35,280 bases of DNA, from positions 1-35,280 of the forward strand of contig DATGHS010000223.1 in assembly GCA_035307785.1 (NCBI GenBank), in the 5' to 3' direction. The notes beneath the pieces are model-generated. The model was not told where the DNA came from, searched no databases, and saw nothing but the letters and a program-made list of their open reading frames with translations. Shown here one piece after another: positions 17,301 through 32,300 of the stretch; within the stretch, counting starts at the first letter, position 1, and each line of letters starts with the position of its first letter. This stretch comes from Gemmataceae bacterium. Lineage in GTDB: Bacteria > Planctomycetota > Planctomycetia > Gemmatales > Gemmataceae. A program made the translations under genes and the position numbers.

Positions 17301-18607
17301 AGGCCGTCGTCGGCAAAAAGAACGCAACTCACCACCCCGCCGTGGCCGCTCAGCGTGAGCAATTCGTTGCCGCTGGCCGCATCCCACAATTTAATTGTTT
17401 TATCCCAGCTCGCCGTAGCTAGCGCTTTACCGTCGGCCGAAAACGACAACGAAGTGATGTCTCCAGAGTGGCTCGAACTGCTGACAATTCTTGGACGCGA
17501 GGCAGCCTGCTCCGCCACCAGCTCCCAGTCAAAGCGGCTGGCCTTCGGGTTTGGAAGGTCCTGGTCGTGTACCAAATCCAGCGCCGGAGGATCTGCTAGA
17601 GCTCCGCCGTCTTGTACCGCTGGCGGTATCGACTCGCCGGCTGGCAAGCCGGTTGCGACTACAACAGGCACAATCGACGTCTGCCCCTCGCGTGGAGGCG
17701 GCACGGTCTTCGGCGGGGTTACCGGAGGCGCTGGTGGCTGGGCCGGCTCCTCTTTTTGCCAAGGCTCTATTGGCGGCTTGGAGCCACCCGCATCAAAGTC
17801 GACTTCACTGCTGAGCTCGGCTGCCGGGGCCACCGAGTCGGACGGAGTAAACAGATTCACTTGTTGTTTTTGCAGAACGGTGGCCATGCCCAGCCATTGG
17901 GCGAGCGTGTGATATTGCACCGCGGCTGGTGATTGGGGGTTCATCGCGATCACCGCCTTGCCGGCCAGCAGCGCTTTCGGCACCTCTGCGTCATAGGGAA
18001 TGGTTTGCGGCAGAATATAACGGCCAAAGATATGCCGGAGATCCACGTCGAAGCCACGGCCCGCAGTCTCGCCCGGTGGCATGGTGAGGAGGATGCCGCG
18101 CATCTGCACCGCGCTTCCTTGCGACTGCATGGCCTTGATGAGCTGGAGAAACATCGGCAATGTCCGGTACGACATGGGCTCGGCCCGGATGATCAGCATC
18201 AAATTGTCGCTGAAGAAAATGAGCTTGCGGAGCAAGTCACCGGTGACGATGGGCGGCGAATCGATGACCAGCCAGCCGTAGCGCTGCGATGACGGGTGCC
18301 GCGACACCGTCTTGAGAAAATCGTCCATCGGCTGCGTGAAGGCAGCGCCGTCACTAGCCGGTTGGATCACGTCGAGGCCGGGGACAACGTTGCGCCAAAC
18401 CACGCCGTCGGCCGCGATGCCCAGTTCGCGAAGCTGCGCTTTATCGGCATGGAGGTGTAAATTGAGTGACGCGGCAACACTTCCCAAGGGATCGGTATCG
18501 ACCAACAAGACCGGAATGCCTGACAGAGCCGCGGCGGTGGACAGATTAATAGCCGTCGTGGTCTTTCCGACGCCGCCTTTCTGGCTGGCGATCAACAATT
18601 TTCGCAC
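14312..18607 (-). CDS. Giant ParA/MinD-family ATPase fused to three WD40 beta-propellers (ORF extends to 18748; GTG 18607 after GGGGAGG avoids a 100-nt overlap with the upstream gene)
   Basis: N-terminal deviant Walker A LLIASQKGGVGKTTTAINL, Walker B WLVIDSPP. Pro-rich linker, then three blocks of ~7 WD40 repeats (GH..V.S.AFSPDG..LAS.S.D.T..LWD) separated by Ala/Pro/Ser/Lys-rich linkers. 1431-1478 aa. Confidence 0.8.
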   Translation of the reverse strand: MRKLLIASQKGGVGKTTTAINLSTAAALSGIPVLLVDTDPLGSVAASLNLHLHADKAQLRELGIAADGVVWRNVVPGLDVIQPASDGAAFTQPMDDFLKTVSRHPSSQRYGWLVIDSPPIVTGDLLRKLIFFSDNLMLIIRAEPMSYRTLPMFLQLIKAMQSQGSAVQMRGILLTMPPGETAGRGFDVDLRHIFGRYILPQTIPYDAEVPKALLAGKAVIAMNPQSPAAVQYHTLAQWLGMATVLQKQQVNLFTPSDSVAPAAELSSEVDFDAGGSKPPIEPWQKEEPAQPPAPPVTPPKTVPPPREGQTSIVPVVVATGLPAGESIPPAVQDGGALADPPALDLVHDQDLPNPKASRFDWELVAEQAASRPRIVSSSSHSGDITSLSFSADGKALATASWDKTIKLWDAASGNELLTLSGHGGVVSCVLFADDGLTLASASWDKTVRLWRLPDGDAVTTLKGHTGVVTALAFSPDGSRLASCGWDKTVRLWDLKDRAELRALEGHEQMVTSVAYAPSGLLLASGSWDKTVRLWDVNTGKTAAVLKGHNGDVTSVAFSREGKTLASGSLDHSIRLWDVETRKERATLRGHGGEVTAVAFSRDGRYLATASWDRTVKLWSAESGELRATLQGHGGVVTSIAFSPDCHGLASCSLDHTVKTWDLGTGRQLNNIAVQLGEEKPSGLPQSESKANLQLPAASAPAKASSPALPLAPAALPASKMPGLAADRKSAPALSKSAVPKLDPKSSKLQAKPSQPSVLSRIASKPIKALTYSPDGQFLASGSGNEVLLWDAASGEILSRLQGHGSEVTAVGFPFDGRLVASADSAGKVCLWENTNGQDMMALPGHGGPVTGLAFPPDGQVLITSSEDGSVKVWDLQTRQLRRSLLGHDSAVRAIAAAQEGKSLATGDGMGMLRIFDLANWREKHHIAAHGREIRCLAMSPEGQAVATGGVDGQLKLWDVATGAEWVDIDAHKGPVMAVAFSGTGSLLASAGADRSVKLWHSITGKSRFEWTGLPTDIAAVTFSPDGKTVAAAGANGIIYFWEANSGRPRATAEEATGSATTAPSVSDLELTPARPIPRFNDMVPTEDMPPGGSVSETHVVPLVSRDVRNVPVSTRATVLAVAGNDQVVSLWNAEIGKQLSQLKGHTRDVNSLAFSPDGLFLASGSADQTVRIWDIASGELLVVLPGHTGEVTSVAFAPDGQTLASASWDSTIKLWDIEHKAERATLTGHKGAVTSLAFHPSGKVLASGSWDRTIRLWDLATGRARAVCSGHEKMVTSLAFAPNGLTLASASWDKTARLWDQAAGEELLAMTGHGLAVSSVLFAPDGQTLFSASWDTTIKRWDLASGREIQTLSGHRESIRCLSLSPSGKQLASCSWDGTVRIWKLENGEPQLTLQSDCGKLNAVAYPPASKLAYSSHNGLLSASRMARKSG

Positions 18608-18648
18608 GATCCAAACCTCCCCGGCCGGTAGGCGTTGCCGCACCCGGT

Positions 18649-19302
18649 TCAGCGTTTCAACAGTGAGTCGTTCAAATTGCGGGCCAATGTACCAAATGCC
18701 GCGGAAGCCACACCTTGAGGAGGCGGGACCCCGGCCTTGAGCGCCCATTCGCGCATTTCCTGCTGCAAAGGAATGACCGGGCTCAGTAGCAATTCGCGAT
18801 GTCCTTCTTGTAACCGGCTAAGCACAGCGCGTTGCACTTCATCCTGGGCATCATAAATGCCGACTAGCAATCCCAATAATTCGAGCCGGCGATTGGCTTC
18901 TCGCGCCTTGCCAATTATCATTGCCGCGGCCGGCACCGTACGAATGGACAGCGGGTCTGCCAAGCTGGTGAGAATAATGCCGTCCGCCGCGCTCAGCACT
19001 CGCTGTGACAACGGATCAAGCAGCGACGGACTATCCACAATCACAATCTGAGTCTGGTGCGGGCCGGCAAGTGCTTCCAGACCGGTCTGAAATTGCACGT
19101 TCGGCCACGGGCACTGGCCGGCCGAATTCAGCGCCACCATGCTCATGGAACGCATCGGTACCGCGTCCACAAGCGTGACCGAGTGGCCCGCCTGACCCAA
19201 ATGCCAGCCCAGGCATAGCGCCGTAGTCGTCCGCCCGGTACCGCCCTTGTGGCTGACGATTCCCAAAATGTAGGGCGACCTCGCCAATGATTTCTCCTTC
19301 AC
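18649..19302 (-). CDS. ParA/MinD-family P-loop paralog with Walker A Lys-to-Arg (SHKGGTGRTTT)
   Basis: 217 aa. ILGIVSHKGGTGRTTTALCLG: signature first Lys present, GK[ST] Lys encoded as CGG (Arg) at 19231-19233 (checked in DNA). Walker B-like QIVIVDSPS. Confidence 0.7.
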   Translation of the reverse strand: MKEKSLARSPYILGIVSHKGGTGRTTTALCLGWHLGQAGHSVTLVDAVPMRSMSMVALNSAGQCPWPNVQFQTGLEALAGPHQTQIVIVDSPSLLDPLSQRVLSAADGIILTSLADPLSIRTVPAAAMIIGKAREANRRLELLGLLVGIYDAQDEVQRAVLSRLQEGHRELLLSPVIPLQQEMREWALKAGVPPPQGVASAAFGTLARNLNDSLLKR

Positions 19303-19537
19303 CGGCTCTTCGCCGAATGCTTGCTCTTGGAACCACGCCCGGCCATCACGTTGATCGGTGTGTCACATTCCTCAGCCGGGGCATGCAATGCCACGTACGA
19401 GTTGGCCAGGAATGGCCGCAACAGCGCAAGAACCTGATTCATCTGCTCACTTTCGGCTTCCAACCATTTCGGATCGAGGGTATCCACGACAATCAGGCTC
19501 CACGGGCGACCTTAAAGGAATGGTTTCGTGGATCGTC

Positions 19538-20296
19538 TCACACACGTGTCTGTTCCAGTGCTGCCAGCACGTCGGCATGATTTTTGCGCCCATGCCCGGC
19601 GAGCGGTTGGAGCCGCTCCGGAACCGTAATGACAAACCGGCTGCGGTCAGCGCCGCAGCTGAAGCAATCCGTTTGCAAGCAATCGAGTTCGGTCCCGGAG
19701 AAGACCGAAAACATGCCGCTCAGAAAGCCGGCCAACAGGGTCTCCACCGGTTGGCCGCCTTGCCGAACGCTTGCCCCCAGCATCGGTGTTTCCACTTCGA
19801 CGGTCAACAAGCCGCGGTCATAGCGGCTGAAACCAAATTGGAAGGTGCCCCAGCCATGATGCTCAAACGCCTGGGCGAGATTGGCACTGAACATAGCCAT
19901 CGGCAAATCCAGCAGCGCTTTGCCGAAATGCTGCTGCATTTGCGCCGCAAATTGTTCCGCTGCCTTGCGGCCCCATTCCCGGCCCGTCGCTTTCAGCACC
20001 GGCAACGCCCGATCCCCCATCTGCCCCTCCAACGAATTGCAGAAAGCGAGCAGGAAATCGTCGGTGAGGGCCAGCATGCGCACGCCGGCCCGATTCTGCA
20101 TCGTGCCCTTGCGCAGATCGTGCTCGATATAGCCGGGCTCGCCGAAGTAGTTGCCCTTCAGCAGCAGGCCTTCTGTATTGGCTTCCATTTCAAGCTCTTG
20201 TTGGTCTTGCCGCCACAAATCCATGTTCGGAGCCGGGGTCGCAAACGGCCGGATTGAGCGCCGTCTCCCATCCGGTCGCTTGCGCTCTCGGCTCAT
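19538..20296 (-). CDS. V4R (4-vinyl reductase / Bet3-like) domain protein (alternative start M at 20224)
   Basis: C-terminal ETLLAGFLSGMFSVFSGTELDCLQTDCFSCGADRSRFVI matches the V4R consensus (G.L.G......G..v.v.E..C...G...C.F.I). Confidence 0.5.
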   Translation of the reverse strand: MSRERKRPDGRRRSIRPFATPAPNMDLWRQDQQELEMEANTEGLLLKGNYFGEPGYIEHDLRKGTMQNRAGVRMLALTDDFLLAFCNSLEGQMGDRALPVLKATGREWGRKAAEQFAAQMQQHFGKALLDLPMAMFSANLAQAFEHHGWGTFQFGFSRYDRGLLTVEVETPMLGASVRQGGQPVETLLAGFLSGMFSVFSGTELDCLQTDCFSCGADRSRFVITVPERLQPLAGHGRKNHADVLAALEQTRV

Positions 20297-20315
20297 ATCC
20301 GTCTTTTAGCTACCG

Positions 20316-20852
20316 TTACGCACTCGTCGCCGCGGGTTCCGGCAGTTCGCTCAAGACTTCAATATTTCGGTCCAAATACGGTTGCAAAAGGGCCGCGGTT
20401 TGCGGGCTGGTATGCTTGGCCACTTGATCGCGCAAGAGCGTGAAGCAATCGCGGCTAAACTTCGGGCTGAAGTTGCCGGCCGCTAAAACTGTGCGCAGCC
20501 AGAACAAGACTTTTTCATCCAGCCAGCGCATGTGGTCGAGAATCATTGCCTGCACATTGAAGCGCAGCACCAATTGTACGTCGTTCTGCGTTTTGGCCAG
20601 CGCCGGGCCCTTTATCGCCGACGATTCCGGATAGCGCTGCTGCATCGCTTCGATCACTGCTTGAACGATGACGTCCTCATGCTCCTGCACCTGATCGGCC
20701 GCTTGAAAGCGCGCGGGCAGCGAGGCGGCTTGGGTCAGCAGCGCCCGTCGTTCATCGGCGTGGAAATAGCGCCCTTCGGCGCCACGGACGAGACTTTGCA
20801 ACTGCGAGTTCATGGGCGAACCTTTCTTCCAACCAGCCTTCCGGCGTGTCAT
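20316..20852 (-). CDS. Phycobilisome-like (globin-fold, PF00502-like) protein lacking the bilin-attachment Cys
   Basis: Aligns along its length to phycocyanin alpha: LVRGAEGRYF~AADTQGRFL, AMQQRYPESS~AVYQKFPYTT, WLDEKVL~PMDEYLI, AAGNFSP~STFDLSP, C-terminal L..YLD..I..L. Cys of the CARD chromophore site is absent. Confidence 0.5.
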   Translation of the reverse strand: MTRRKAGWKKGSPMNSQLQSLVRGAEGRYFHADERRALLTQAASLPARFQAADQVQEHEDVIVQAVIEAMQQRYPESSAIKGPALAKTQNDVQLVLRFNVQAMILDHMRWLDEKVLFWLRTVLAAGNFSPKFSRDCFTLLRDQVAKHTSPQTAALLQPYLDRNIEVLSELPEPAATSA

Positions 20853-21806
20853 TCATTCCCAGGCGGCCAGCGCCATCACCGTCGCCACCGTCCAGGCCGC
20901 ACCGCCGGTCGGCCCATAGCCGAAGAGAGGGACACCCTTGGCCAATGTGATCGTTTCCTTTTCGAGACCAGCGAGCGGATCGCGAATGGGATGGCGAACC
21001 TGATCCGGCCGGTTGCGCCAGTTCATCAGAGTAAAGTATCCCGCGGTCGTTACATTTCCCAGCGGAATAAGATCGGCTGTCGGCACATTCGGTTGTGTGA
21101 CGGGCTTGGACAGAGCAACCGGGATCGGGGCGGGCTTTTTTTCCTCCCGGGTGTTCCGCCAGTTGTACTTTTGCAAAAAGGAACTGGCCGGCTCGAGGGC
21201 CAACTCGGGTGGCGGCGCCGGCTTTTCCACTGCCTGCATTTCCGCTTCGTCCGCGGCGAGCGCGAAATGAACCGGCACCACAGGCGTAATGGGTACCTTG
21301 GGCATTTCCACTTTTGTCGGCGAAGCCACGGGCGGCTCTTCTTTGGCGGGAGAAATTGCAGGCAGTTGCAATTCGGCTTTGGATGGTGAAATAGCGGGTA
21401 GCTGTAGCTCTGCTTTCGATGATGATACGGGAGGCAGCTTCAACTCTGCCTTGGATTGCGACGCGGTAATCCGTTGAAGTTCCGCCCTGGAGAACGAAAC
21501 GGTAGGCGGCAACTTGGTTTCAGGATCGGACGGTCTGGCCGGCATCGCCGGCGGCACGGGCAACGGCAAGGGCGCGATCGGCACTTGCGCCGCGGCCGGC
21601 AGCGCATCCAGGTCCACGTCTTCCAGTGCGAGGCCAGGGGAATCGAATATCGGATGCGATGCTTCCAGCCCCGGTGACTGCGGAACAAACCCTGCGGCCA
21701 AGGGTTGGTTTTCGTCGGGCGGCAAGGGCGGCATCAATTCGGCCAATAACTCTGCGATCTTGGCCCGCTCCGGAATTTCCCTGCCGTTCATATTGCTGCC
21801 AGCCAT
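20853..21806 (-). CDS. Proline-rich protein with four 12-aa tandem repeats (S[KR]AELQLPAISP) and hydrophobic C-terminus
   Basis: AAGGGG RBS-like 5 nt upstream of ATG 21806. Stop overlaps or abuts downstream gene start (20852/20853). Repeats encoded by ~36-nt units at 21348-21491. Confidence 0.55.
   Translation of the reverse strand: MAGSNMNGREIPERAKIAELLAELMPPLPPDENQPLAAGFVPQSPGLEASHPIFDSPGLALEDVDLDALPAAAQVPIAPLPLPVPPAMPARPSDPETKLPPTVSFSRAELQRITASQSKAELKLPPVSSSKAELQLPAISPSKAELQLPAISPAKEEPPVASPTKVEMPKVPITPVVPVHFALAADEAEMQAVEKPAPPPELALEPASSFLQKYNWRNTREEKKPAPIPVALSKPVTQPNVPTADLIPLGNVTTAGYFTLMNWRNRPDQVRHPIRDPLAGLEKETITLAKGVPLFGYGPTGGAAWTVATVMALAAWE
21348..21491 (-). repeat. Four imperfect ~36-nt tandem repeats encoding the 12-aa units of the Pro-rich protein
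   Basis: Encoded SRAELQRITASQ / SKAELKLPPVSS / SKAELQLPAISP / SKAELQLPAISP. Nucleotide units such as ggcagttgcaattcggctttggatggtgaaatagcg and ggtagctgtagctctgctttcgatgatgatacggga. Confidence 0.5.
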
Positions 21807-23128: not shown

Positions 23129-23206
23129 GGAAAACCCTCGCGAGCAGAGGGATACTTACTCATCGACTTTACGCACCCCACGCCGCGGCGTCAACAAAAC
23201 TCCAAG

Positions 23207-23268
23207 CCGCAAGGCGAGTCTTCGAGCCTTGCGGGTTTCGCCACTCACCACTCTCTACTTGCTATAAT
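23207..23268 (+). promoter_or_regulatory. Candidate promoter: extended -10 TGCTATAAT (23260-23268) 6 nt before ATG 23275 (possible leaderless mRNA), preceded by 9-bp perfect inverted repeat CCGCAAGGC/GCCTTGCGG (23207-23234)
   Basis: Read directly from sequence. No good -35, consistent with extended -10 promoters. The inverted repeat could be an operator. Confidence 0.4.
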
Positions 23269-23274
23269 GCTCGC

Positions 23275-26200
23275 ATGCACCGGGAGTTACGAACGACGAA
23301 CGAGGCGTTTCAACCGCCGAAGATGGCCGGGCTCTGCCTGTTCACCGGCTTGCTGCTCTTTCTCGTTGGCCGCGACTTGTGGCCTGATTTGGCCTCTTTC
23401 CTCGGCCGCCAGGGGCTTGACCTGCCCACCGGCTCGCGCGAACTCTTCGGCTTCCGCTATGCCCTTTATGCCGCGGTGATTGGCGGCGCCCGGGTACTTT
23501 ACGGTTCACTCGAAAGCCTGTTCGAAGGAAAGCTCGGGGCCGATCTGGCGCTGGCGGTCGCCTGTATTGCCGCCATTCTTATCGGCGAACCGCTGGTTGC
23601 AGCGGAAGTCGTCCTCATCGGCCTGATTGGCGAGTGTCTGGAAGGCTTCACGTTTGCCCGCACGCAAAACGCCATACGCAAGCTGGCCGAACTTTTCCCC
23701 ATTCGTTGCTGGGTGGTGCGCGACGGACAGGAAATGCGCATGTTCGTAAGCGACGTCGTGGTGGGCGATGTCGTCGTCGTAAAGCCAGGGGCCAAGGTGC
23801 CGGTCGACGGCAACGTGCGCGACGGCCGCTCGGCTGTGGATGTGAGCGCGCTGACCGGCGAAAGCTTGCCGGTGGATAAAGGGCCGGGCGACGAAGTCTT
23901 GGCGGGTAGTTTGAACCAGAATGGCGCCTTAACGATTGAAGCAAAGCGCGTGCAGGAACAAACGGTCGCCGGCCGGGTGCTGGAACTCACCGCGAAGGCA
24001 CTGAAGGAAAAAGCTCCGGTAGCGCGGCACGCTGACCGGTTGGCGAAGTACTTTCTCCCAGCCGTGCTGGCCCTCGCCGCCGTGACCTTCATGGCGAATC
24101 TGCTCTGGTACGCGGGTCCCTTCCGCGGGGAAGCGGTGCGCTTGACGCTGGGCCAGGCGGCGCGGCTCAGCATGTACCCGGCCCTGGCGGTACTGGTGGT
24201 CGCATGCCCGTGCGCATTGATTCTCGCCACTCCGGCAGCGGTTATTGCCGCGCTCGGCCGCCTTGCGGGCACCGGGGTCCTGCTGAAAAGTGGGGCCGCG
24301 CTGGAGCGCCTGGCTGGGGTCACGAGTTTTGCCTTCGACAAGACTGGCACCCTAACGGAGGGCAAGCTCGAACTTGGCGATATTCTGCCGGTCGATAGCA
24401 CCACTCCACCGGAACAACTCTTGCGCCGGGCCGCCAACGCGGAACTGCCAAGCGAGCATCCGCTGGCTCGCGTGCTGGTGCAGGAAGCGCAGCGGCGATC
24501 ACTCGTGCTTGATCCGGTCGAGGAATTCATTGCCCATCCGGGAGCCGGCGTGCGAACGCGGGTTGGCGGCAAAACGCTGCTCGTCGGTACACCGCGGTTG
24601 CTGCAGGAGCAAGGCCTGTCGCCCGGCACCGAAGTGCGCGCACTGCTCGAGCGCCTCGAAAACGATGGCCAAACGCCATTGCTCATTGCCGCCGACGGCC
24701 GCATTCTCGGCGCCATTGGAGCGCGCGACCGTATTCGACCGGAAGCTCGCGGCATTATCGTGGAATTACGCGAATTGGGTATACAGGACATCTCGCTGCT
24801 GACCGGCGACCGGAACGCTGTGGCCGTGAAAGTCGCCTCGGACCTTGGCATCGAATCTGTGCATGCCGAATTGTTGCCGGCCGACAAGGCAAAGCTGGTT
24901 ACCGCCCAAGCGGACACGGAAGCAGCACAGTCGGTTGCCTTTGTTGGCGACGGCGTGAACGATGCGCCGGCACTGGCCAGCGCCACCGTTGGCCTGGCGG
25001 TCGGCGGCGGAGCCGAGATTGCTGCCGAGGCGGGCGACGTCGTGCTGATGGGCGATCCGCTGGCGCCGTTGCCGCTTCTGGTGCGCCTATCGCGGCAAAC
25101 GGTTCACATCATTCGGCAAAACATCGTCATCTTCGCGTTTGGCGTAAACATTGTCGGCATTGTCCTCACCGGCTGGCTCTGGCCGCTGCTTGCGCGCTCG
25201 CCGGAATGGTACGAACGCGCTCCGCTGGCCGGCGTGATCTACCATCAGCTCGGCTCGCTGCTCGTGCTACTGAATTCCATGCGGCTCCTGGCCTTTGAAC
25301 GCAAGAGCGTAAAGGCATCCTCCGGCCGGGTACGCAGCGCTCTACAGCAGCTTGATGTCTGGGTCGAGCGGGCCAGCAATGCGGATGAATGGCTGCACGA
25401 GCTTTCGCATCGCTGGAAGCCGATCGCGCTCGGCATCAGTCTCATCGGCGTTGCTGCCTACGCCGCGAGCGGCCTCACGCAAGTGGAGCCGAACGAAATT
25501 GCCGTGGTGCGGCGCTTTGGCCGGCCGCTTGAAGAGGATCTCGGCCCCGGCCTGCACTGGCGCTGGCCGTGGCCGGTGGAAACCGTGCTGAAGACACAGC
25601 CGGATCAAGTGCGCAGCGTGGAAGTGGGCTTTCGGGTGTTGAAAGATCGTCTGGCGAAAACAGAGGGTCAACAGACACGGGCCGCACTCACCTGGCTCAG
25701 CCAGCACGAAAGCGAAGGCGTGCTCCGGATCGAAGGCGAAGCCGTCATGCCCACCGGCGACGGCAACCTGATCGAACTCTTGGCCACGCTGCAATACCGC
25801 CTCCGCTCACCCCGACGCTATTTGCTGGAAGTGAATAATCCGGACGAAATTCTGCGCGCGAATTTGGAAGCGGCGTTGCGCGAACAGGCGGCCGGCGAAT
25901 CGTTTCTGGAATTGCTCACGCTGCGCCGGGCGGAGTTTCAGCGCGAGGTGTTCGCCCGCTTGCAGAAGCGCTTGCAATCCTACGGCGACCCGGGTCTTGG
26001 CATTGTCTTGGAAGGTCTTGCGCTGCGCGACCTGCACCCGCCGGCCCCGGTAGTGCCGTCGTTCCACGACGTGGCCAAAGCCGCCGAGGGGCACGACCAG
26101 ATGATAAAGGAAGCTGAGGCCGAGGCGCTGCGCATTCGCCGTGACGCCGAGAGCAAAGGGAAGGAAATCGAACGCCAAGCCGAAGCCGCCGCGCATCGCA

Positions 26201-26589
26201 CCGTGGAAATGGCGAAGAAAGACCGCGACGCCTTTCTGGCCTGGTACAGGCTGCGAACCGAACTCAGCCCGGCCGTCGAATCGCGGCTGGCAACGGAAAC
26301 GGTCGGTCTGATCCTGGCCGGGCAAGACGTAACCAGCGCCCTGGCCGACCATCAGCGCCGCCGGCAACAGCAACTGGAGAATCAGGCTTTCCTGGTTGAT
26401 TTCCGGCTGACGTGGATGGCCCTGGGCGAAACGCTCTCGCAGCGCGACAAGGTGTTCATCGATGCCGACAAACTCCCAGGCCGCCGCACGCTGCTGCTCT
26501 TCGGTCCGGACCAACTCACACCGCCGCCCATTATCCTTCCAAGCCGCATGCCAGGGCGAGGGCCGGGTGTGGAGGGGGAGGAACGCTAA
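23275..26589 (+). CDS. P1B-type (CPC) heavy-metal-translocating P-type ATPase fused in frame to a C-terminal HflK/SPFH (band-7) domain
   Basis: P1B ATPase motifs TGESLPVDK, CPCALILATPAA, FDKTGTLTEG, VGDGVNDAPALA. No N-terminal HMA/CxxC domain. After the last ATPase helices comes a TM helix PIALGISLIGVAAYAA, then the SPFH domain EPNEIAVVRRFGRPLEEDLGPGLHWRWPWPVETV, then an HflK-like coiled-coil tail (AEAEALRIRRDAESKGKEIERQAEAAA). Confidence 0.8.
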   Translation: MHRELRTTNEAFQPPKMAGLCLFTGLLLFLVGRDLWPDLASFLGRQGLDLPTGSRELFGFRYALYAAVIGGARVLYGSLESLFEGKLGADLALAVACIAAILIGEPLVAAEVVLIGLIGECLEGFTFARTQNAIRKLAELFPIRCWVVRDGQEMRMFVSDVVVGDVVVVKPGAKVPVDGNVRDGRSAVDVSALTGESLPVDKGPGDEVLAGSLNQNGALTIEAKRVQEQTVAGRVLELTAKALKEKAPVARHADRLAKYFLPAVLALAAVTFMANLLWYAGPFRGEAVRLTLGQAARLSMYPALAVLVVACPCALILATPAAVIAALGRLAGTGVLLKSGAALERLAGVTSFAFDKTGTLTEGKLELGDILPVDSTTPPEQLLRRAANAELPSEHPLARVLVQEAQRRSLVLDPVEEFIAHPGAGVRTRVGGKTLLVGTPRLLQEQGLSPGTEVRALLERLENDGQTPLLIAADGRILGAIGARDRIRPEARGIIVELRELGIQDISLLTGDRNAVAVKVASDLGIESVHAELLPADKAKLVTAQADTEAAQSVAFVGDGVNDAPALASATVGLAVGGGAEIAAEAGDVVLMGDPLAPLPLLVRLSRQTVHIIRQNIVIFAFGVNIVGIVLTGWLWPLLARSPEWYERAPLAGVIYHQLGSLLVLLNSMRLLAFERKSVKASSGRVRSALQQLDVWVERASNADEWLHELSHRWKPIALGISLIGVAAYAASGLTQVEPNEIAVVRRFGRPLEEDLGPGLHWRWPWPVETVLKTQPDQVRSVEVGFRVLKDRLAKTEGQQTRAALTWLSQHESEGVLRIEGEAVMPTGDGNLIELLATLQYRLRSPRRYLLEVNNPDEILRANLEAALREQAAGESFLELLTLRRAEFQREVFARLQKRLQSYGDPGLGIVLEGLALRDLHPPAPVVPSFHDVAKAAEGHDQMIKEAEAEALRIRRDAESKGKEIERQAEAAAHRTVEMAKKDRDAFLAWYRLRTELSPAVESRLATETVGLILAGQDVTSALADHQRRRQQQLENQAFLVDFRLTWMALGETLSQRDKVFIDADKLPGRRTLLLFGPDQLTPPPIILPSRMPGRGPGVEGEER

Positions 26590-26883: not shown

Positions 26884-27426
26884 CTACCTCGCCTCCCGTG
26901 GTGAGCTGCCCGGCGGCGGTTGACCGGGGCTCGATTCATTGGCATTGCCCGCCTTGGGCCCGCCCGGCAGATCGGGCCGGGTGGTCGATTGGTCGTTCTT
27001 TAATTCCTGGATGGGCTGACCGAAGTACATGTCCTTTGGTCCTGGGCCTTCCACTCCTTCGGGCCCCGGCACATCGTGATAGCGGCGCAGGAACTCCACG
27101 AGCTTGGCGTATTCTTTGCCCGTCAGATTGGCGCGCACGCGCATGTGGGCGGCCACATTCTGGAAGTTGGAAAATGGCCGCTCGGCCAGCGTAGGCGCAC
27201 TGTGGCAATAGCTGCAATACATCGAAAAGACCTTGCCGCCCGTCAGCGAATCCTCGTACGATTGGCAGCCATTGCCGTCTTTCACCGGCGTCGGCATGCG
27301 CAGCGGCGCCGGACCTTCCTCCAACGTCGAAGTCGCGACCGGCGTTTGGTGGCATCCATACGAGCCGAGGATGCCGGCCATGATCAGGGCCGGGGCAATC
27401 AGCCAGCGCTTCCCTTTGCTTCGCAT
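26884..27426 (-). CDS. Monoheme cytochrome c, probable lipoprotein
   Basis: CSYCHS (CxxCH). N-terminal LIAPALIMAGILGSYGC lipobox-like. Pro/Gly-rich C-terminal tail. Confidence 0.7.
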   Translation of the reverse strand: MRSKGKRWLIAPALIMAGILGSYGCHQTPVATSTLEEGPAPLRMPTPVKDGNGCQSYEDSLTGGKVFSMYCSYCHSAPTLAERPFSNFQNVAAHMRVRANLTGKEYAKLVEFLRRYHDVPGPEGVEGPGPKDMYFGQPIQELKNDQSTTRPDLPGGPKAGNANESSPGQPPPGSSPREAR

Positions 27427-27439
27427 ATACCGCTACTCC

Positions 27440-29026
27440 TTACCAGCCCCAGGCCAATTGGAAGAGCAAATTGTTGTCGTGAAGATGGAACCCGGGCTCG
27501 TCGTTGATTTCATAGGCCGCCTGCAACAGCATGCGCGGCGAAATATAGTAGTTCAGTCCAAACGCATTCTGTTGCCGGGTCACCGGCACATCGACCGGCG
27601 TGGGGTAGGTCCCGATCGTGAGCGTCGTGGGATCGATGCCCTGGAAATTCACGTAGCTATAGCGATAGACGAACTCCAGTTTTTGCAGGAAGCGGTTGGC
27701 ACTGTCGCGCGGCCGGTAGGCGAGCTGGCCATAGAAGCCCTGGCGCACGATGTCGGTGCCAATGATGTCGCCGGCCTGCTGGTACAGCGCGCCGTACTCG
27801 AACCGGAAATCCCAGTTGCCTTTGCGGTAGTTGAAATCGGCCGCCCAAAGCGTGATCGAGTCGTTGAAGCCGGCCATGTACGGGCCGTTGTACATGGCCG
27901 ACAATCCGGCCGCCAAACCAACTTCCGGCCACCACAGGCCGATTCGGCCGCCGAATGCCTTTTGATTCGAGATCAGGCTAAACGTGCCTTCCATGCCTTC
28001 AAGGTTGGCCAGCTCATCGGGAGTCGGCGCTCCAGGCGCTCCCGGCGTCACGTTCATGGCGTTCGACACGTACGCGTTGTACTCAAGCTTGATTGGCGAA
28101 CAGCCCAGGTAGAAGGAGCCTTGTGCTTGGACGCCCAGTAGCGCCGTCGGCGGCAAAACTTGCATCCAGAGGATCGGCACGCCGCCGGGCGCATCGCCGG
28201 GGAGCTTGTTGATCCAGGGATTATTCAGGCGCTCGTTGTACCAGCCGATCGGCGCCACAAAGCGGCCGGCAATGATTGTCAGCCAGTCGTTGACAAAGAA
28301 GTCGGCCTGGAGGAACGTCGGATTCACGGTCCCGCCGGCGCCGACCGAGATTTCGCCCTCGAAGAGAATCCACTCGTTGAGCTTCAGGAAGAAGTCGGGC
28401 GAGAATTCGCCGAAGTAAAAGCCTCCTGGCACATCGGGCCGCCCGGCGCCATTGGCCGCCGTGGTTGGGTCGCCCAGGAGCTTCGCGTAACCAAACGCCA
28501 TCGTGCTGTAAATGCTAAGCGGCGATTCATTGGTCTGGCTGGGGAAGAACAGTTCTTTGAGCTGCGTCGGCAAGCGCGGTCCGTTGCGTTCGTCGGCATC
28601 GATATGCGCGTTGAGGGCATCGACCGCCGATTCCAATTGCTGGTCGCGCTGGGCCGCTTGCACCGAGCGCGCTTCCAACGTGGCGGTCTGCGCCTGAAGC
28701 TTTTCGATGGCGGGAGCGGATGGCGGCTGCTTTTTCAGTTGCTCGGCCAGCAGTTCGATCATTTTCTGCTGAAGCTCGACTTGCTTGCGCAATAACTCGA
28801 CTTGCTTCTTGACGTCGTCGTCTTTGGGTTCGTCGGCCTGGATGCGCACAAATTCCGGCGGCGCAGCGGCCGAATCTCGAACCGGCGGACCAAATTGCGC
28901 CGCCGCCGGACTGGGCATTCTGGGGGGGGCAAGAATGGGCTGGCCCGGACTTTCCTGGCCGCCGGCGTTATTCGTGGCCACCAGAACCACCGTTGCCATC
29001 AGGGCAGCGCCAAACCAAATGCGCAT
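27440..29026 (-). CDS. Outer-membrane porin-like protein: N-terminal coiled coil + C-terminal beta-barrel (DcaP-like architecture); ORF extends to 29122
   Basis: Signal peptide MRIWFGAALMATVVLVATNNAGGQE at 29026. Coiled-coil KKQVELLRKQVELQQKMIELLAEQLKK. Alternating aromatic/Gly beta-strand region ending in an aromatic C-terminus (LAWGW). Confidence 0.55.
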   Translation of the reverse strand: MRIWFGAALMATVVLVATNNAGGQESPGQPILAPPRMPSPAAAQFGPPVRDSAAAPPEFVRIQADEPKDDDVKKQVELLRKQVELQQKMIELLAEQLKKQPPSAPAIEKLQAQTATLEARSVQAAQRDQQLESAVDALNAHIDADERNGPRLPTQLKELFFPSQTNESPLSIYSTMAFGYAKLLGDPTTAANGAGRPDVPGGFYFGEFSPDFFLKLNEWILFEGEISVGAGGTVNPTFLQADFFVNDWLTIIAGRFVAPIGWYNERLNNPWINKLPGDAPGGVPILWMQVLPPTALLGVQAQGSFYLGCSPIKLEYNAYVSNAMNVTPGAPGAPTPDELANLEGMEGTFSLISNQKAFGGRIGLWWPEVGLAAGLSAMYNGPYMAGFNDSITLWAADFNYRKGNWDFRFEYGALYQQAGDIIGTDIVRQGFYGQLAYRPRDSANRFLQKLEFVYRYSYVNFQGIDPTTLTIGTYPTPVDVPVTRQQNAFGLNYYISPRMLLQAAYEINDEPGFHLHDNNLLFQLAWGW

Positions 29027-29353
29027 GGGAATTCTCGCCAGTTCGCTCGCACAATCGACGGGCCCAGGGCACCAGGCCCGCGCAGATTCGCCGCGCCGCC
29101 GTGGCGCGCGGATTTGCCGCAATTGCCGATTGGGCAGAATGTACTGGTATTATCGGTTTTGCTGCGTTTATTAATGAGCGAACTTTGGCAAACCGACCGT
29201 GCTTCAAGCCAGATGCAAGGTAGCAATTCAGCGAGCGCATGGTGCAAGCAATCTCAACGCTTGCAGCTCATGCGGCTACAACATTCCTTGTGCCGGAAAC
29301 TTCTCTTTCAAAAAAGTGACAAGGATTTCGCCTTTCATTGCTGGGTTTCGCCA

Positions 29354-32300
29354 ATGCGACCTTACTTTCATTCGTTCGTCCTGGTTTTCGTCGGTTTGAC
29401 TCAATCCTCCTCATTCGCACAAACGCCGCCCATCCGAAACGGCACCGACGCCGCGCGGAAGGAGATGGCCGCGTTCCGCTATCCGGCCGGGCTCAAAGTC
29501 GAACTGTTTGCCTGCGAGCCGATGCTCGCCAGTCCGGTGGCCATTTGTCTCGACGAAAAGGGCCGCGTGTTCGTGGCTGAGGAGTATCGTTTCAACCAGG
29601 GGACGGAAGAGAACCGCACGCGCCCGTTTTTGCTCGAAGATGACTTGCAGTTGCGCACAGTAGATGACCGCCTCGCCATGTACAAGAAGCATGCTGACAA
29701 GTTTCCTGGCGGCATGAGTTGGTTCTCGAAACATTCCGACCAGGTGCGCATGCTGGTGGACCGCGCCGGCACCGGCCATGCCGATTATTCCACCGTCTTT
29801 GCGGGCGGCTTCAACGATCCGCTCGACGGTCTGGCCGCAGGAGTCCTGGCGCGCGACGGAAACCTTTATTTCACCTGCATTCCGCATCTGTGGCTGCTGA
29901 AAGACACGAGAGGCACCGGTCACGCCGACGTGCGCATTCCGTTGCATCGCGGCTTCGGCGTCGATTGCGCCTTCCTGGGCCACGACTTGCACGGCCTGAC
30001 TTGGGGACCTGACGGCAAGTTGTATTTCTCGGTGGGCGATCGCGGGTTCAACGTCACCTCGAAGGAAGGGAAGACCTTCGTTGGCCCGCGCACCGGCGGC
30101 GTGTTTCGCTGCAATCCCGACGGCTCGGAATTGGAGCTAATCTTCCGCGGCCTGCGGAATCCACAGGGGTTGGCCTTCGACCAGTACGGCAACCTCTTCG
30201 CCGACGACAACAACTGCGACAAGGGCGACGATTCGCGCCTGGTCTACATTGCCGAAGGCGGCGACGCGGGCTGGAATATGGCCTACCAGACCATCCCCGA
30301 GCCGTATCTCACCGGCCCCTGGCACGCGGAGCGCATGTGGCATCTGTACCACAAGGGCCAACCGGCGTGGATCGTGCCGCCGGTGGGCAAGATCGGCACC
30401 GGGCCGTCCGGCTTCGAGTTCACGAGCGGCATCAGCCTACCGCCGCGCTACCACAACCGCTTCTTCATGTGCAATTACACCGGCAACGGCGGCGTGGAGT
30501 CATTCGGCGTCGTGAACAAAGGCGCGGGTTTCGAGATAGTCGATTACCACGATTTCCTCAAGCCGATCCACGCGACCGACGTAAAGATGGGCTACGACGG
30601 CAAGCTTTATGTTTCCGATTTCGTTGACTTGCTCTGGAACGGCGGCACAGCGGGGGGGCGGATTTACACGGTGCTTGATCCGGAGCGGGTGAAGAGCCTC
30701 CAGGTACAAGACGTCCAATCTCTGTTTAAAACGGGCATCTCCCGCCTCGCCCGGAACAGCGATTTGGCGGAGTTAATGGCCTATCCCGATTTGCGCGTCC
30801 GACAACGTGCTCAGTTCGCGCTCGCCGAACGCGGCGCGAAATCGATAGCCGTGCTTAACGAAGTGCTGGCACACGGGTTCCGACATCCTGAATGGAACAC
30901 GGAACAACTAGGCAGAATGCACGCTATCTGGGGCCTGGGACAAATTGGCCGGCACGCACCAGAGGCATTGAAAAAGCTGCTGCCCTTCCTTAAAGACCCG
31001 GATGTCGAAATTCGTGCCCAGGTCTTGCGCATTCTTGGTGATGACCATTTCCGTGGCGCAGAAGACGAGTTCGTAGGCCTGCTGAAGGATGAGAGCCCGC
31101 GTGTCCGCTATTTCGCGGCGATGGGGCTGGGAAAACTAAAGCATCGCGCTGCCGTCGATGGCCTTTTCGCCATGTTGGAACAGAATCATGACGACGACCC
31201 CTTCCTTCGTCACGTGGGGATCTATGCTCTGGCTCAAATCGGCGATGCCGAAGCGGTGCAAGCCCGAGCGAAGCACCCGTCGCCATCGGTTCGCGTGGCT
31301 GTCCTCCTCATTCAGCGGCGCTTGCAAGACAAACGAATCAGCCAGTTCCTGAACGACAGCGAACTCGACATCGTCACGGAAGCGGCGCGGGCCATTCACG
31401 ACCTGCCGCTCGACAGCGAGCTTCCCGCTCTGGCCGCCGCCCTGGATCGCTTCGCCGGCCGAATGGAATCGGAAGCGGAGCCCTTGCTGCGCCGGATTAT
31501 CGATGCGCATTTCCGCCTGGGTCAAGCCGAGAACGCACGGGCTTTAGCTCGCTATGTGGCCAACGACGCCGGTTCGCCGCGAATGCGCTCGGAAGCATTG
31601 TCCGCCCTGGCCGACTGGACCGAGCCATCACCCCGTGATCGCGTGACCTGGTTCTGGCGGCCGCTGGCCAAGCGCGATCAGCAGATCATCAAGCAGGTAT
31701 TGGAAGAATCCATCGGCACGATCCTGAGCCGGACTTCGGGCCAGCCACAGATTCAAGCGGTTAATCTCATCACGAAGAATCAGATCAAGGCCGACGATGG
31801 CACGTTCTTCCGCTGGCTGACCGATCCACAGCGCGATGGCCCGGCTCGTTTGGCCGCCCTCCGACTGCTCGTGTCCCGCAAGTTTCCGCAGTTGGACCTC
31901 GCCATTGGACTGTGCATGAAAGACAGCGACCCGCACGTCCGCGCGGAAGCTCGCCAGGCCCTGGCAGGTCTTCATCCCGAATTGGCCACGCCCTTGCTGG
32001 CTGAAGCACTTTGCCGGCCGCAAAGCGCGGTGGTGGAGAAACAGCAGGCCCTGGCCACCTTGGCCCGGATGCGCGCTGAGCCGGCCAGGAAACTTCTCGA
32101 AGCCTGGGCCGCCCGGTTGGCCAAGGGCGAAGCGCCGCTGGAACTGCAACTCGACTTGCTCGAAGCACTTGGCCAAGTGCCCGGCGATCCCTTCAAGCAG
32201 GCGATTCAGAAATTCCAATCCAGGCAATCGCCATCCGACCCGCTCGCCAAGTTTCGCGTCAGCCTGTACGGCGGCGATGCCGAGCGCGGCCGGCAATTAT

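What the first reader, a model, noticed from the sequence alone, without database searches (positions are those of the whole stretch)
23275..26589. In-frame fusion of a P1B (CPC) heavy-metal P-type ATPase with an HflK/SPFH band-7 domain
All P-type ATPase catalytic motifs are present (DKTGT, TGES, GDGVNDAP, CPC in the transport helix). The reading frame then continues through an extra TM helix into a complete SPFH domain and an HflK-like coiled-coil tail. SPFH proteins normally form separate membrane-microdomain or protease-regulating oligomers, so a covalent fusion to a metal pump is an atypical architecture. The gene also lacks the usual N-terminal HMA metal-binding domain. A candidate extended -10 promoter with an upstream 9-bp inverted repeat directly precedes it, and a cyt c lipoprotein plus a porin follow on the other strand.
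Basis: partly seen in the sequence, partly recalled or inferred. Interest (0 to 1): 0.7.

Follow-up and report, generated by a model that had tools for sequence, protein, structure and literature searches.

The report
Metal pump fused to HflK scaffold
This gene really does encode one protein that joins a heavy-metal export pump to an HflK-type membrane-scaffold domain, and the join is conserved across several bacterial phyla, which suggests these scaffold cages are directly connected to metal export.

Summary
It has a complete P1B ATPase, a 43-aa basic linker, a ninth TM helix, and a full HflK-like module outside the membrane.

It is not a frameshift artefact. At least 120 protein clusters and about 65 of 75 species-level loci carry the same uninterrupted ORF.

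New findings:
- In most relatives the fusion heads an operon: pump-HflK, then hflC, then a plain hflK. This holds in Gemmataceae, an Isosphaeraceae locus and a Sumerlaeota locus. The window's sub-lineage is a derived "solo" copy, but its SPFH part is still strongly conserved.
- The same kind of HflK module is also fused to CDF metal exporters, followed by the same two genes.
- Every fused module examined has a ~30-aa insertion with invariant Trp-x3-His. Plain HflKs lack it.
- The pump has CPC in M4 and His-Gln in M6, aligned to His-Glu of the P1B-4 pump sCoaT. A divalent-metal substrate is therefore more likely than the automatic "Cu+" label.

The promoter, inverted repeat and downstream-gene remarks are not conserved. 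I found no published description. The function is inferred: a pump tethered into an HflK/C-type cage.

The parts
23275..26589 (+). Whole gene: P1B ATPase-HflK fusion, 1104 aa plus stop codon
   Evidence: ORF; three Pfam domains; conserved full-length homologs; AF2 model with mean pLDDT 81
23275..25290 (+). P1B-type ATPase part (aa 1-672): invariant N-terminal MHR, helices MA/MB and M1-M6, and the A, P and N domains
   Evidence: TIGR01525 546.6 bits against a 346 cut-off, aa 90-671; Foldseek best matches CopA 4bbj by E-value, ZntA 4umw by TM-score (0.91) and sCoaT 7qbz; hydropathy and model helices
23854..23865 (+). TGES dephosphorylation motif (aa 194-197)
   Evidence: T194, G195 and E196 invariant in 76 sequences
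24205..24213 (+). CPC motif in transport helix M4 (aa 311-313)
   Evidence: CPC in 34 of the 35 full-length fusion proteins aligned, the exception P0199 reading CSC
24337..24351 (+). DKTGT phosphorylation motif (aa 355-359)
24946..24969 (+). GDGVNDAP hinge motif (aa 558-565)
25243..25248 (+). M6 His657-Gln658, aligned with His657-Glu658 of the HEGxT motif of the P1B-4 pump sCoaT
   Evidence: Alignment to 7qbz; invariant within the family, and H(Q/E) in all fusions; role of H657/E658 in sCoaT from PMC8880997
25291..25419 (+). Cytoplasmic linker (aa 673-715): basic (8 K/R), helical in the model, with a conserved LHxLSHxW motif just before the next helix
   Evidence: H708 invariant and H712 nearly invariant among 76 sequences; both invariant among the 15 C-terminal sequences aligned
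25420..25482 (+). Ninth transmembrane helix (aa 716-736), equivalent to the single TM anchor of HflK; places the rest of the protein outside the cytoplasm
   Evidence: Hydropathy and positive-inside count; model helix 714-731; aligns to the HflK TM and first strands
25483..26049 (+). SPFH / Band_7 domain (aa 737-925)
   Evidence: PF01145 82.9 bits against a 23.6 cut-off; HflK is the only PDB sequence match; top four fold matches are HflK chains
25627..25740 (+). Insertion specific to transporter-fused HflK modules (aa ~785-822) with invariant G785, R787, W807, H811 and E822; predicted to be a flexible loop
   Evidence: No counterpart in E. coli HflK; present in all P1B- and CDF-fused modules aligned and absent from plain HflKs; pLDDT below 50 for aa 791-810
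26050..26442 (+). Coiled-coil region (aa 926-1056): one 70-residue helix and two further helices
   Evidence: Model helices 926-995, 999-1014 and 1019-1056 at pLDDT 80-90; aligns to the HflK coiled coil
26443..26514 (+). Conserved C-terminal segment RDKVFIDADKLPGRRTLLLF (two short beta strands), comparable to the HflK C-terminus
   Evidence: Nearly invariant R1057, K1059, P1068, R1071 and invariant D1063, G1069; strands in the C-terminal model. That the equivalent HflK segment closes the cage top is my own knowledge of the HflK/C structures, not read from a paper here
23260..23268 (+). TGcTATAAT, an extended -10-like element ending 6 nt before the ATG (would give a leaderless or nearly leaderless mRNA)
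   Evidence: Sequence; not reported by the two-hexamer scan; not conserved in 48 homologous loci
23204..23237 (.). Inverted repeat AAGCCGCAAGGC / GCCTTGCGGGTT in the divergent intergenic region
   Evidence: no comparable repeat is visible in the homologous upstream regions printed, which was not a formal repeat search

Best explanation
The gene encodes an active P1B-type transition-metal export ATPase whose cytoplasmic C-terminus continues, through a basic linker and one extra membrane helix, into a complete HflK-type SPFH module on the periplasmic side. The pump stands where HflK normally has its cytoplasmic N-terminal tail. I propose that the HflK module oligomerises into an HflK/C-type ring or cage. 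In most relatives it would do so with the HflC and plain HflK encoded directly downstream. In this lineage it would do so either alone or with partners encoded elsewhere. Metal export would then take place at or inside an SPFH-delimited patch of membrane. The substrate is most likely a divalent metal of the Zn/Co/Cd/Fe type, not Cu+. The most likely purpose is to couple the pump to the HflK/C environment, meaning FtsH-dependent quality control or turnover and the local lipid domain. The fusion-specific Trp-x3-His/Glu loop, which by analogy with HflK would lie near the membrane, may sense or receive the exported ion. Shown here: the intact conserved fusion, catalytic motifs, topology logic, HflK-like fold, the insertion, the operon context in relatives, and constraint on the SPFH part. 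Inferred: the substrate, cage formation, FtsH coupling, and the role of the loop.
For: The fusion is intact and conserved. All catalytic motifs are present and invariant. Eight pump helices, a Lys/Arg-rich linker and one further helix place the SPFH part outside, as in HflK. The C-terminal module matches only HflK by sequence in the PDB, and its four best fold matches are HflK chains covering about 300 columns including the coiled coil. The C-terminal segment is conserved. The order pump-HflK, then HflC, then plain HflK holds in all six related operons tested individually, namely four P1B loci and two CDF loci, and in the CDF reference locus L003. It also holds in most of about 50 Gemmatales loci that have hflC downstream. 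NCBIfam places the downstream genes above the HflC and HflK cut-offs in L002 and L003. The same kind of module is fused to CDF exporters. All fused modules examined share the W-x3-H insertion and plain HflKs lack it. In the solo clade the SPFH part is at least as conserved as in the operonic clade at matched ATPase divergence; for P0003 the ATPase is 86% and the SPFH 95% identical. For the substrate: H657-Q658 in M6 aligns with H657-E658 of sCoaT, the only PDB pump that aligns through M6 to its C-terminus. ZntA gives the highest TM-score. TIGR01512 (Cd family) is above its cut-off while TIGR01511 (Cu) is below. The CDF partners carry His/Asp sites.
Against: Nothing here shows oligomerisation, FtsH binding or transport. 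The window's copy has no hflC or hflK within 35 kb, so its partners are unknown. Its HflK score is below NCBIfam's cut-off, although that is true of all Gemmataceae HflKs tested, including a plain one. Twelve pumps on one HflK/C-type ring may be sterically difficult; that is my own estimate. The insertion is predicted disordered and offers only one His and one Glu per protomer. CPC in M4 is also the Cu+-class motif, so Cu cannot be excluded from sequence alone. A distance tree of the shared core does not resolve the fused modules as one clade, with 11% bootstrap support.
Confidence: 0.6

Rival explanations
1. Assembly or annotation artefact: two adjacent genes, a pump and an HflK, were joined by a missed stop codon or a frameshift near 25250-25450.
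For: About seven of the 75 genome loci show the reading frame broken into two or three ORFs: L007, L024, L027, L031, L035, L067 and L073.
Against: At least 120 independent clusters from different sources hold one ORF of about 1100 aa. About 65 of 75 species-level loci hold both halves in one uninterrupted ORF. Conservation runs through the junction, the linker has its own conserved motif, and H708 is invariant. The broken loci break at different positions, mostly inside the ATPase, and several come from the MFD-labelled MAG series. That pattern looks like sequencing error or pseudogenes, but I did not check it at read level.
Confidence: 0.02
2. The SPFH module works in cis only. It would be a periplasmic regulatory or sensor domain that tunes its own pump, for example by feedback from exported metal through the W-x3-H loop, and it would not build an HflK/C-type cage. 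This would be especially plausible in the solo lineage.
For: The window copy has no hflC or hflK nearby. The fusion-specific insertion carries invariant His and Glu. Only metal exporters were found fused to this module among the best 150 representatives.
Against: The long coiled coil and the conserved C-terminal segment are retained under strong constraint. In solved SPFH proteins these are the oligomerisation elements (for the matches; their role is my own knowledge). In most relatives the gene sits in the hflK position of an hflK-hflC operon.
Confidence: 0.17
3. The fusion mainly makes the pump a permanent client of FtsH. The HflK module would deliver the attached pump to the protease for rapid, regulated degradation, and the module would have no metal-related role of its own.
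For: E. coli HflK/C surrounds FtsH and enhances degradation of some membrane substrates (PMC12048511). The module is HflK-like and pairs with HflC in relatives.
Against: If generic turnover were the purpose, many transporter types should be fused, yet only P1B and CDF metal exporters were seen. The fused modules carry their own conserved insertion. No ftsH gene is linked in any locus examined.
Confidence: 0.13
4. It is an ordinary Cu+ exporter, as the JGI annotation 'Cu+-exporting ATPase' says, with an accessory SPFH domain.
For: CPC in M4. CopA structures are among the best sequence and fold matches.
Against: The Cu+ signatures in M5 (YN) and M6 (MxxSS), which I know from the family literature, are absent. 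M6 has YHQLGS and M5 has N616 and N625. TIGR01511 (Cu) scores 380.6, below its 397 cut-off, whereas TIGR01512 (Cd family) scores 406.7 against 313.5. CopA alignments stop before M6, and only sCoaT aligns through it. The parallel fusion partner is a CDF family with His/Asp sites; that CDFs carry only divalent cations is my own knowledge.
Confidence: 0.12

Closest known systems
HflK of the E. coli FtsH-HflK/C complex (PDB 7vhp, 7wi3, 9cz2)
   Same: Single TM anchor with the SPFH domain outside the cytoplasm, SPFH core, long coiled coil and conserved C-terminal segment. HflK is the only PDB sequence match and gives the four best fold matches. In relatives the fused gene sits directly upstream of hflC.
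   Different: The cytoplasmic N-terminal tail is replaced by a complete 8-helix metal pump. There is a ~30-aa insertion with invariant W-x3-H. The window protein scores below the HflK family cut-off. The window has no linked hflC. FtsH association is untested.
P1B-4 ATPases such as sCoaT (PDB 7qbz); CzcP and CtpD are further members that I know from the literature
   Same: No classical N-terminal metal-binding domain. The M6 His aligns with the essential H657, and the sequence aligns through M6 to the last residues of sCoaT.
   Different: M4 has CPC where this class has SPC. M6 has HQLGS where the class has HEGxT; some distant fusions keep HE. About 430 extra C-terminal residues carry the HflK module.
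ZntA-type P1B-2 Zn/Cd/Pb pumps (PDB 4umv, 4umw)
   Same: CPC in M4. Highest structural TM-score, 0.91. The NCBIfam Cd-family model is above its cut-off.
   Different: The M5 Lys and M6 Asp pair of ZntA (K693 and D714 in PMC8880997) is replaced by Asn and His-Gln. There is no HMA domain.
CDF-HflK fusion proteins (for example MDP8248239.1 of Candidatus Tritonobacter lacicola; P0213, P0232, P0196)
   Same: The same kind of HflK module with the W-x3-H insertion, and the same downstream hflC and plain hflK.
   Different: The exporter is a 6-helix cation-diffusion-facilitator, not a P-type ATPase. No CDF cytoplasmic C-terminal domain was detected.
Non-covalent SPFH cage and membrane-protein pairs: stomatin with aquaporin 1 (PDB 9zd2), prohibitin with the m-AAA protease, QmcA with YbbJ
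   Same: An SPFH oligomer associated with a specific membrane protein. These cage-forming proteins all appear among the fold matches.
   Different: Here the client is covalently joined to the scaffold subunit, so the pairing is fixed by the gene itself.

Membership tests
P1B-type heavy-metal ATPase (TIGR01525) | Family HMM score above the curated cut-off | tested here: met
   546.6 bits against 346.25, aa 90-671
P1B-type heavy-metal ATPase (TIGR01525) | P-type catalytic motifs: DKTGT, TGES, GDGxNDxP and the nucleotide-domain HP | tested here: met
   DKTGT at aa 355, TGES at 194, GDGVNDAP at 558, SEHP at 393-396; invariant in 76 sequences
P1B-type heavy-metal ATPase (TIGR01525) | Cys/Pro-containing motif in M4 and the eight-helix MA, MB, M1-M6 core | tested here: met
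   CPC at aa 311-313; model helices and TM-score 0.91 to ZntA
P1B-1 Cu+/Ag+ pumps (TIGR01511) | Subfamily HMM above its cut-off; M5 YN and M6 MxxSS signatures | tested here: not met
   380.6 bits against a 397 cut-off; M5 reads NIVIFAFGVN and M6 reads YHQLGS; the signatures themselves are my own knowledge of the family
P1B-2 Zn/Cd/Pb pumps (TIGR01512; ZntA) | Subfamily HMM above its cut-off | tested here: met
   406.7 bits against 313.5, in three stretches
P1B-2 Zn/Cd/Pb pumps (TIGR01512; ZntA) | M5 Lys and M6 Asp pair (K693 and D714 in ZntA) | tested here: not met
   Asn in M5 and His-Gln in M6; the pair is described in PMC8880997; the ZntA equivalog models are far below their cut-offs
P1B-4 Co/Zn/Cd pumps (sCoaT type) | SPC motif in M4 | tested here: not met
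   CPC; the motif definition is from PMC8880997
P1B-4 Co/Zn/Cd pumps (sCoaT type) | HEGxT motif in M6 | tested here: inconclusive
   HQLGS: the His aligns with H657, and Gln replaces E658; some distant fusions have HE
P1B-4 Co/Zn/Cd pumps (sCoaT type) | No classical N-terminal heavy-metal-binding domain | tested here: met
   No HMA hit; the class feature is from PMC8880997
SPFH / Band_7 (PF01145) | Domain HMM above the gathering score | tested here: met
   82.9 bits against 23.6, aa 736-951
HflK (TIGR01933) | Equivalog HMM above the curated cut-off | tested here: not met
   120.6 bits against 159.4 for the window protein. Distant fusions P0194 (200.7) and P0213 (162.6) pass. All Gemmataceae HflKs tested, including a plain one, score 109-130.
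HflK (TIGR01933) | N-in single TM anchor, periplasmic SPFH domain, coiled coil and C-terminal segment | tested here: met
   Topology logic, models, HflK as the best fold match over about 300 columns
HflK (TIGR01933) | Encoded next to hflC | tested here: not met
   No other SPFH ORF in the 35-kb window. The feature is met in most relatives.
HflK (TIGR01933) | Forms a hetero-oligomeric cage with HflC and binds FtsH | not testable with these tools
   Needs biochemistry or multimer modelling

The most novel reading that the evidence does not exclude
HflK/C-type SPFH cages in PVC-group and neighbouring phyla are dedicated divalent-metal export compartments. One or more exporter molecules, a P1B ATPase or a CDF, are built into the ring through a specialised HflK subunit. 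That subunit's Trp-x3-His/Glu loops would line the membrane-proximal periplasmic face and bind or sense the released metal. A plain HflK paralog would dilute the number of pumps per ring. This would be the first case in which the client of an SPFH cage is defined genetically, and it would give a natural sample for seeing where a client sits relative to the cage.
Probability: 0.3. Interest if true: 0.8.

Novelty: new variant of a known kind. Interest (0 to 1): 0.62.

Why it matters
Many SPFH proteins (HflK/C, stomatin, prohibitin, flotillin, erlin) now have solved cage structures, as the fold matches show. In my reading of the field, what they enclose and why is still argued case by case. A conserved gene fusion acts as a Rosetta-stone link, because it shows that the scaffold and the fused protein work together. 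Here the same kind of HflK module is fused to two unrelated families of metal exporters and is followed by the same hflC and hflK genes. That points to a specific and previously unreported link between HflK/C assemblies and metal export. It also corrects automatic annotation, since these proteins are currently named either 'Cu+-exporting ATPase' or 'HflK', never both. Finally, it offers a tractable target: one polypeptide carrying both scaffold and client, suited to cryo-EM and genetics.

Tried and rejected
- A 13-sequence C-terminal alignment was too diverse for the genome scan. A 6-sequence version worked but is biased towards Gemmatales.
- The AFDB fold library was unavailable, so I could not look for cultured organisms that carry the fusion.
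- A bootstrapped NJ tree of the shared SPFH core was unresolved. Fused modules were monophyletic in 11 of 100 replicates, and neither the P1B-fused nor the CDF-fused set formed a clade. Common ancestry of the fused modules therefore rests only on the shared insertion.
- The promoter scan reported nothing on the + strand upstream. The TGcTATAAT and inverted repeat seen by eye are not conserved, so I do not count them as part of the system.
- A fourth operon gene was sought and is not conserved.
- I tried to map the reported HflK Arg191-FtsH contact onto the fusion. Residue 191 in the aligned E. coli sequence is Ala by my count, so I dropped it.
- I considered that the SPFH part might be decaying in the solo lineage. 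I rejected this because it is as conserved as in the operonic clade, or more so.
- The four apparently stand-alone relatives (P0179, P0202, P0206, P0248) begin with, or have within their first residues, the end of pump helix M6, '...(LN)xxRLL'. I read them as truncated fusions; the evidence is weaker for P0248, which shows only '...SRLL'.
- Four literature searches for SPFH or HflK fused to P-type ATPases or CDFs found nothing relevant.


Full report
**Observation.** The window holds an uninterrupted ORF at 23275..26589 on the + strand, 1104 aa, starting with ATG. Pfam finds E1-E2_ATPase (aa 140-331), the HAD Hydrolase domain (352-570) and Band_7/SPFH (736-951), and no HMA domain. NCBIfam places aa 90-671 in the heavy-metal P1B family at 546.6 bits against a 346 cut-off. 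It places aa 737-1017 nearest to HflK at 120.6 bits, below that model's 159.4 cut-off. TGES (194), CPC (311), DKTGT (355) and GDGVNDAP (558) are present. Base composition around the gene is unremarkable for the window.

**Is the fusion real?** A search of the large protein collection returned at least 120 clusters, 56-100% identical and 959-1150 aa long. Every one carries the three Pfam domains, and those with a source name are labelled Gemmataceae. In an alignment of these, conservation runs through the junction. The first residues, MHR, are at least 98% conserved, which supports the 1104-aa start over the 1088-aa call of the identical protein P0001. A scan of one genome per species found 75 loci, most of them labelled Gemmataceae, Gemmatales, Limnoglobus or Fimbriiglobus. 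About 65 of them hold ATPase and SPFH sequence in one uninterrupted ORF. About seven show the frame broken at varying positions, mostly inside the ATPase, which looks like sequencing error or pseudogenes.

**Anatomy and topology.** Hydropathy and the AlphaFold model (mean pLDDT 81) give the eight helices of a P1B pump. A 43-aa helical linker (aa 673-715) with 8 Lys/Arg follows, then a ninth hydrophobic helix at aa 716-736. After that come β-strands and helices of an SPFH domain, a 70-residue helix (926-995), two more helices (to 1056), and a conserved terminal segment with two short strands. A P1B pump ends in the cytoplasm, so one more helix puts the SPFH part outside the cytoplasm, which is the orientation of HflK. 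In the E. coli complex only residues 79-355 of HflK are modelled, which leaves a long unmodelled N-terminal part (PMC12048511). I read that part as the cytoplasmic tail, and the pump occupies its position.

**Identity of the two halves.**
- The ATPase model superimposes best on ZntA by TM-score (0.91). CopA 4bbj has the best E-value, with ZntA and sCoaT close behind.
- Only sCoaT, a P1B-4 pump, aligns by sequence through M6 to its own last residues. In that alignment the invariant His657-Gln658 of this protein matches His657-Glu658 of the HEGxT motif. These residues are implicated in ion binding and release (PMC8880997).
- M4 has CPC where the P1B-4 class has SPC.
- Among the 35 full-length fusion proteins aligned, all but one (P0199, CSC) have CPC in M4. 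All have H(Q/E)xxS...RLL in M6.
- The Cu-family model falls below its cut-off and the Cd-family model passes.
- The C-terminal module matches only HflK among PDB sequences. Its four best fold matches are HflK chains, followed by stomatin, erlin, prohibitin, QmcA, HflC and flotillin.

**Context in relatives.**
- An exhaustive profile-free search with the C-terminal 429 aa found 162 representatives at E below 1e-30. Of the best 150, about 35 are full-length pump-HflK fusions with SPFH identity down to 30%. Most shorter hits are fragments that begin with pump sequence.
- A separate class of 557-619 aa consists of a Cation_efflux (CDF) transporter fused to the same kind of module.
- In six related operons tested gene by gene, the fusion gene is followed directly by an HflC-like gene and then a plain HflK-like gene. 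These are four P1B loci (L002 of unknown lineage, a Gemmataceae locus, an Isosphaeraceae locus, a Sumerlaeota locus) and two CDF loci. The CDF reference locus L003 has the same order.
- NCBIfam scores the two downstream genes above the HflC and HflK cut-offs in L002 and L003. The fused modules of P0194 and P0213 also pass the HflK cut-off.
- About 50 of the Gemmatales genome loci have hflC directly downstream, and most also have the plain hflK.
- Source names place the P1B fusion in Planctomycetota (Gemmataceae, Isosphaeraceae) and Candidatus Sumerlaeota. A partial member of one cluster is labelled Abditibacteriales. The CDF fusion is named in Candidatus Auribacterota.

**The window's copy is a derived solo version.** No other SPFH ORF exists in the 35 kb, and no metal regulator or ftsH either. 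The closest relatives whose neighbourhoods could be read also lack downstream Band_7 genes: P0003 (87%, syntenic), P0004 (71%) and P0011 (68%). P0018 at 60% identity has them. The SPFH part is not decaying in this clade. At matched ATPase divergence its SPFH and coiled-coil identities equal or exceed those of the other clade, and against P0003 the SPFH is 95% identical versus 86% for the ATPase. One caveat: only three 'solo' and two 'operonic' members were verified by context. The low HflK score is a lineage trait, since Gemmataceae fused, solo and plain HflKs all score 109-130 bits.

**A signature of the fused modules.** Residues of roughly 780-813 have no counterpart in E. coli HflK. This ~30-aa insertion carries invariant G785, R787, W807 and H811, with E822 just beyond it. 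It is present in every P1B- and CDF-fused module aligned and absent from the plain HflKs of the same operons. By a spacing and motif count, 45 of 49 fused modules have W-x3-H, against 0 of 11 plain HflKs. The four fused exceptions look like failures of my regular expression. The loop is predicted to be flexible. A distance tree of the shared core is unresolved. Whether all fused modules descend from one ancestor therefore rests on this insertion alone.

**Mechanism.** The shown facts are listed above; the rest is inference. The retained coiled coil and C-terminal segment, and the hflK-position of the gene ahead of hflC, argue that the module joins an HflK/C-type ring, which would tether the pump to it. 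A plain hflK is kept beside the fused one. My own reading is that mixed rings limit the number of bulky pumps per ring. The substrate is probably a divalent metal, for four reasons: the M6 His-Gln/Glu, the structural similarity to ZntA and sCoaT, the HMM scores, and the parallel CDF fusion. The CDF partners have HSxSD and HSxxD sites, and that such sites mark Zn/Co/Cd-type CDFs is my own knowledge. Two possible purposes are FtsH-linked turnover or quality control, and sensing or receiving the exported ion through the His/Glu loop. Only metal exporters were found fused, which argues against a purely generic turnover role.

TGcTATAAT ends 6 nt before the ATG, which would give a leaderless mRNA, and the inverted repeat is real. 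Neither recurs in 48 homologous upstream regions. Lack of an HMA domain is normal for the nearest pump class. The downstream 'cytochrome c lipoprotein' and 'porin' have no family hits and are not conserved neighbours.

**Novelty.** Four full-text searches found no description of an SPFH or HflK domain fused to a P-type ATPase or a CDF. Databases name these proteins as one half or the other. Both components are well known, and the covalent combination, its operon and its specific insertion appear undescribed. I class it as a new variant of a known kind. Interest is moderate to high, because it gives the SPFH field a genetically defined client.

Noticed in passing
L003:8001-11573, L080:5001-8672, L081:5001-8806: Cation-diffusion-facilitator (CDF) exporters are fused to the same kind of HflK module, with the W-x3-H insertion, and are followed by hflC and a plain hflK. 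The CDF part has HSxSD (TM2) and HSxxD (TM5) sites, and no cytoplasmic C-terminal domain was detected.
   Followed up: yes
window 18649-21806 (- strand): A gene cluster reads ParA/CbiA-like ATPase (18649-19302), V4R-domain protein (19538-20296), a protein matching Pfam Phycobilisome PF00502 at E 1.9e-17 (20316-20852), and an abutting Pro-rich repeat protein (20853-21806). A phycobilisome-type globin fold is unexpected in what looks like a Gemmataceae genome. The same gene order occurs on the contig of the 87%-identical relative P0003.
   Followed up: partly
window 23260-23277: TGcTATAAT ends 6 nt before the ATG and there is no Shine-Dalgarno sequence, which implies a leaderless or nearly leaderless transcript. 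The arrangement is not seen in 48 homologous loci, where -10-like hexamers lie 20-45 nt upstream.
   Followed up: yes
window 23275-23286 and 25381-25419: The N-terminal residues M-H-R are invariant across the family, and distant fusions have His-rich N-termini (for example HHEHPEHHH in P0199). A conserved LHxLSHxW motif lies in the cytoplasmic linker just before the ninth TM helix. Both could be cytoplasmic metal-binding or regulatory elements.
   Followed up: partly
window 25171-25215 (aa 633-647): The Gemmatales-type pumps have an 11-residue Trp-rich insertion (GWLWPLLARSPEWYE) in the M5-M6 loop on the outer face. The shorter, more distant fusion proteins lack it.
   Followed up: no
L007, L024, L027, L031, L035, L067, L073: In about seven of 75 species-level genomes the fusion gene is broken into two or three overlapping ORFs at different positions, mostly inside the ATPase. 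Several come from the MFD-labelled MAG series. These are likely assembly frameshifts or pseudogenes, but this was not checked at read level.
   Followed up: partly
L022, L023, L046, L077 and L061, L062, L069: Contigs carrying Gemmatales-type fusion operons are labelled 'uncultured Alcaligenaceae' or 'Candidatus Kuenenia' in their records. The taxonomic labels of these MAGs are probably wrong.
   Followed up: no
window 4415-5443 (-), 7-1410 (+), 14312-18748 (-): There is a MoxR ATPase of the MoxR-vWA-beta-propeller ternary-system type (PF20030, E 8e-58). Two large WD40 beta-propeller proteins are also present, one of 1478 aa.
   Followed up: no
window 26884-27426 (-) and 27440-29122 (-): A 180-aa protein has a lipoprotein-like signal and a single CSYCH haem motif. 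A 560-aa protein has an N-terminal coiled coil and a C-terminal aromatic residue. Neither matches any Pfam family. They are not conserved next to the fusion gene in relatives.
   Followed up: partly
window 28802-32695 (+): A 1297-aa protein combines DUF7133, a glucose/sorbosone dehydrogenase-like propeller, HEAT repeats and a C-terminal cytochrome c domain.
   Followed up: no
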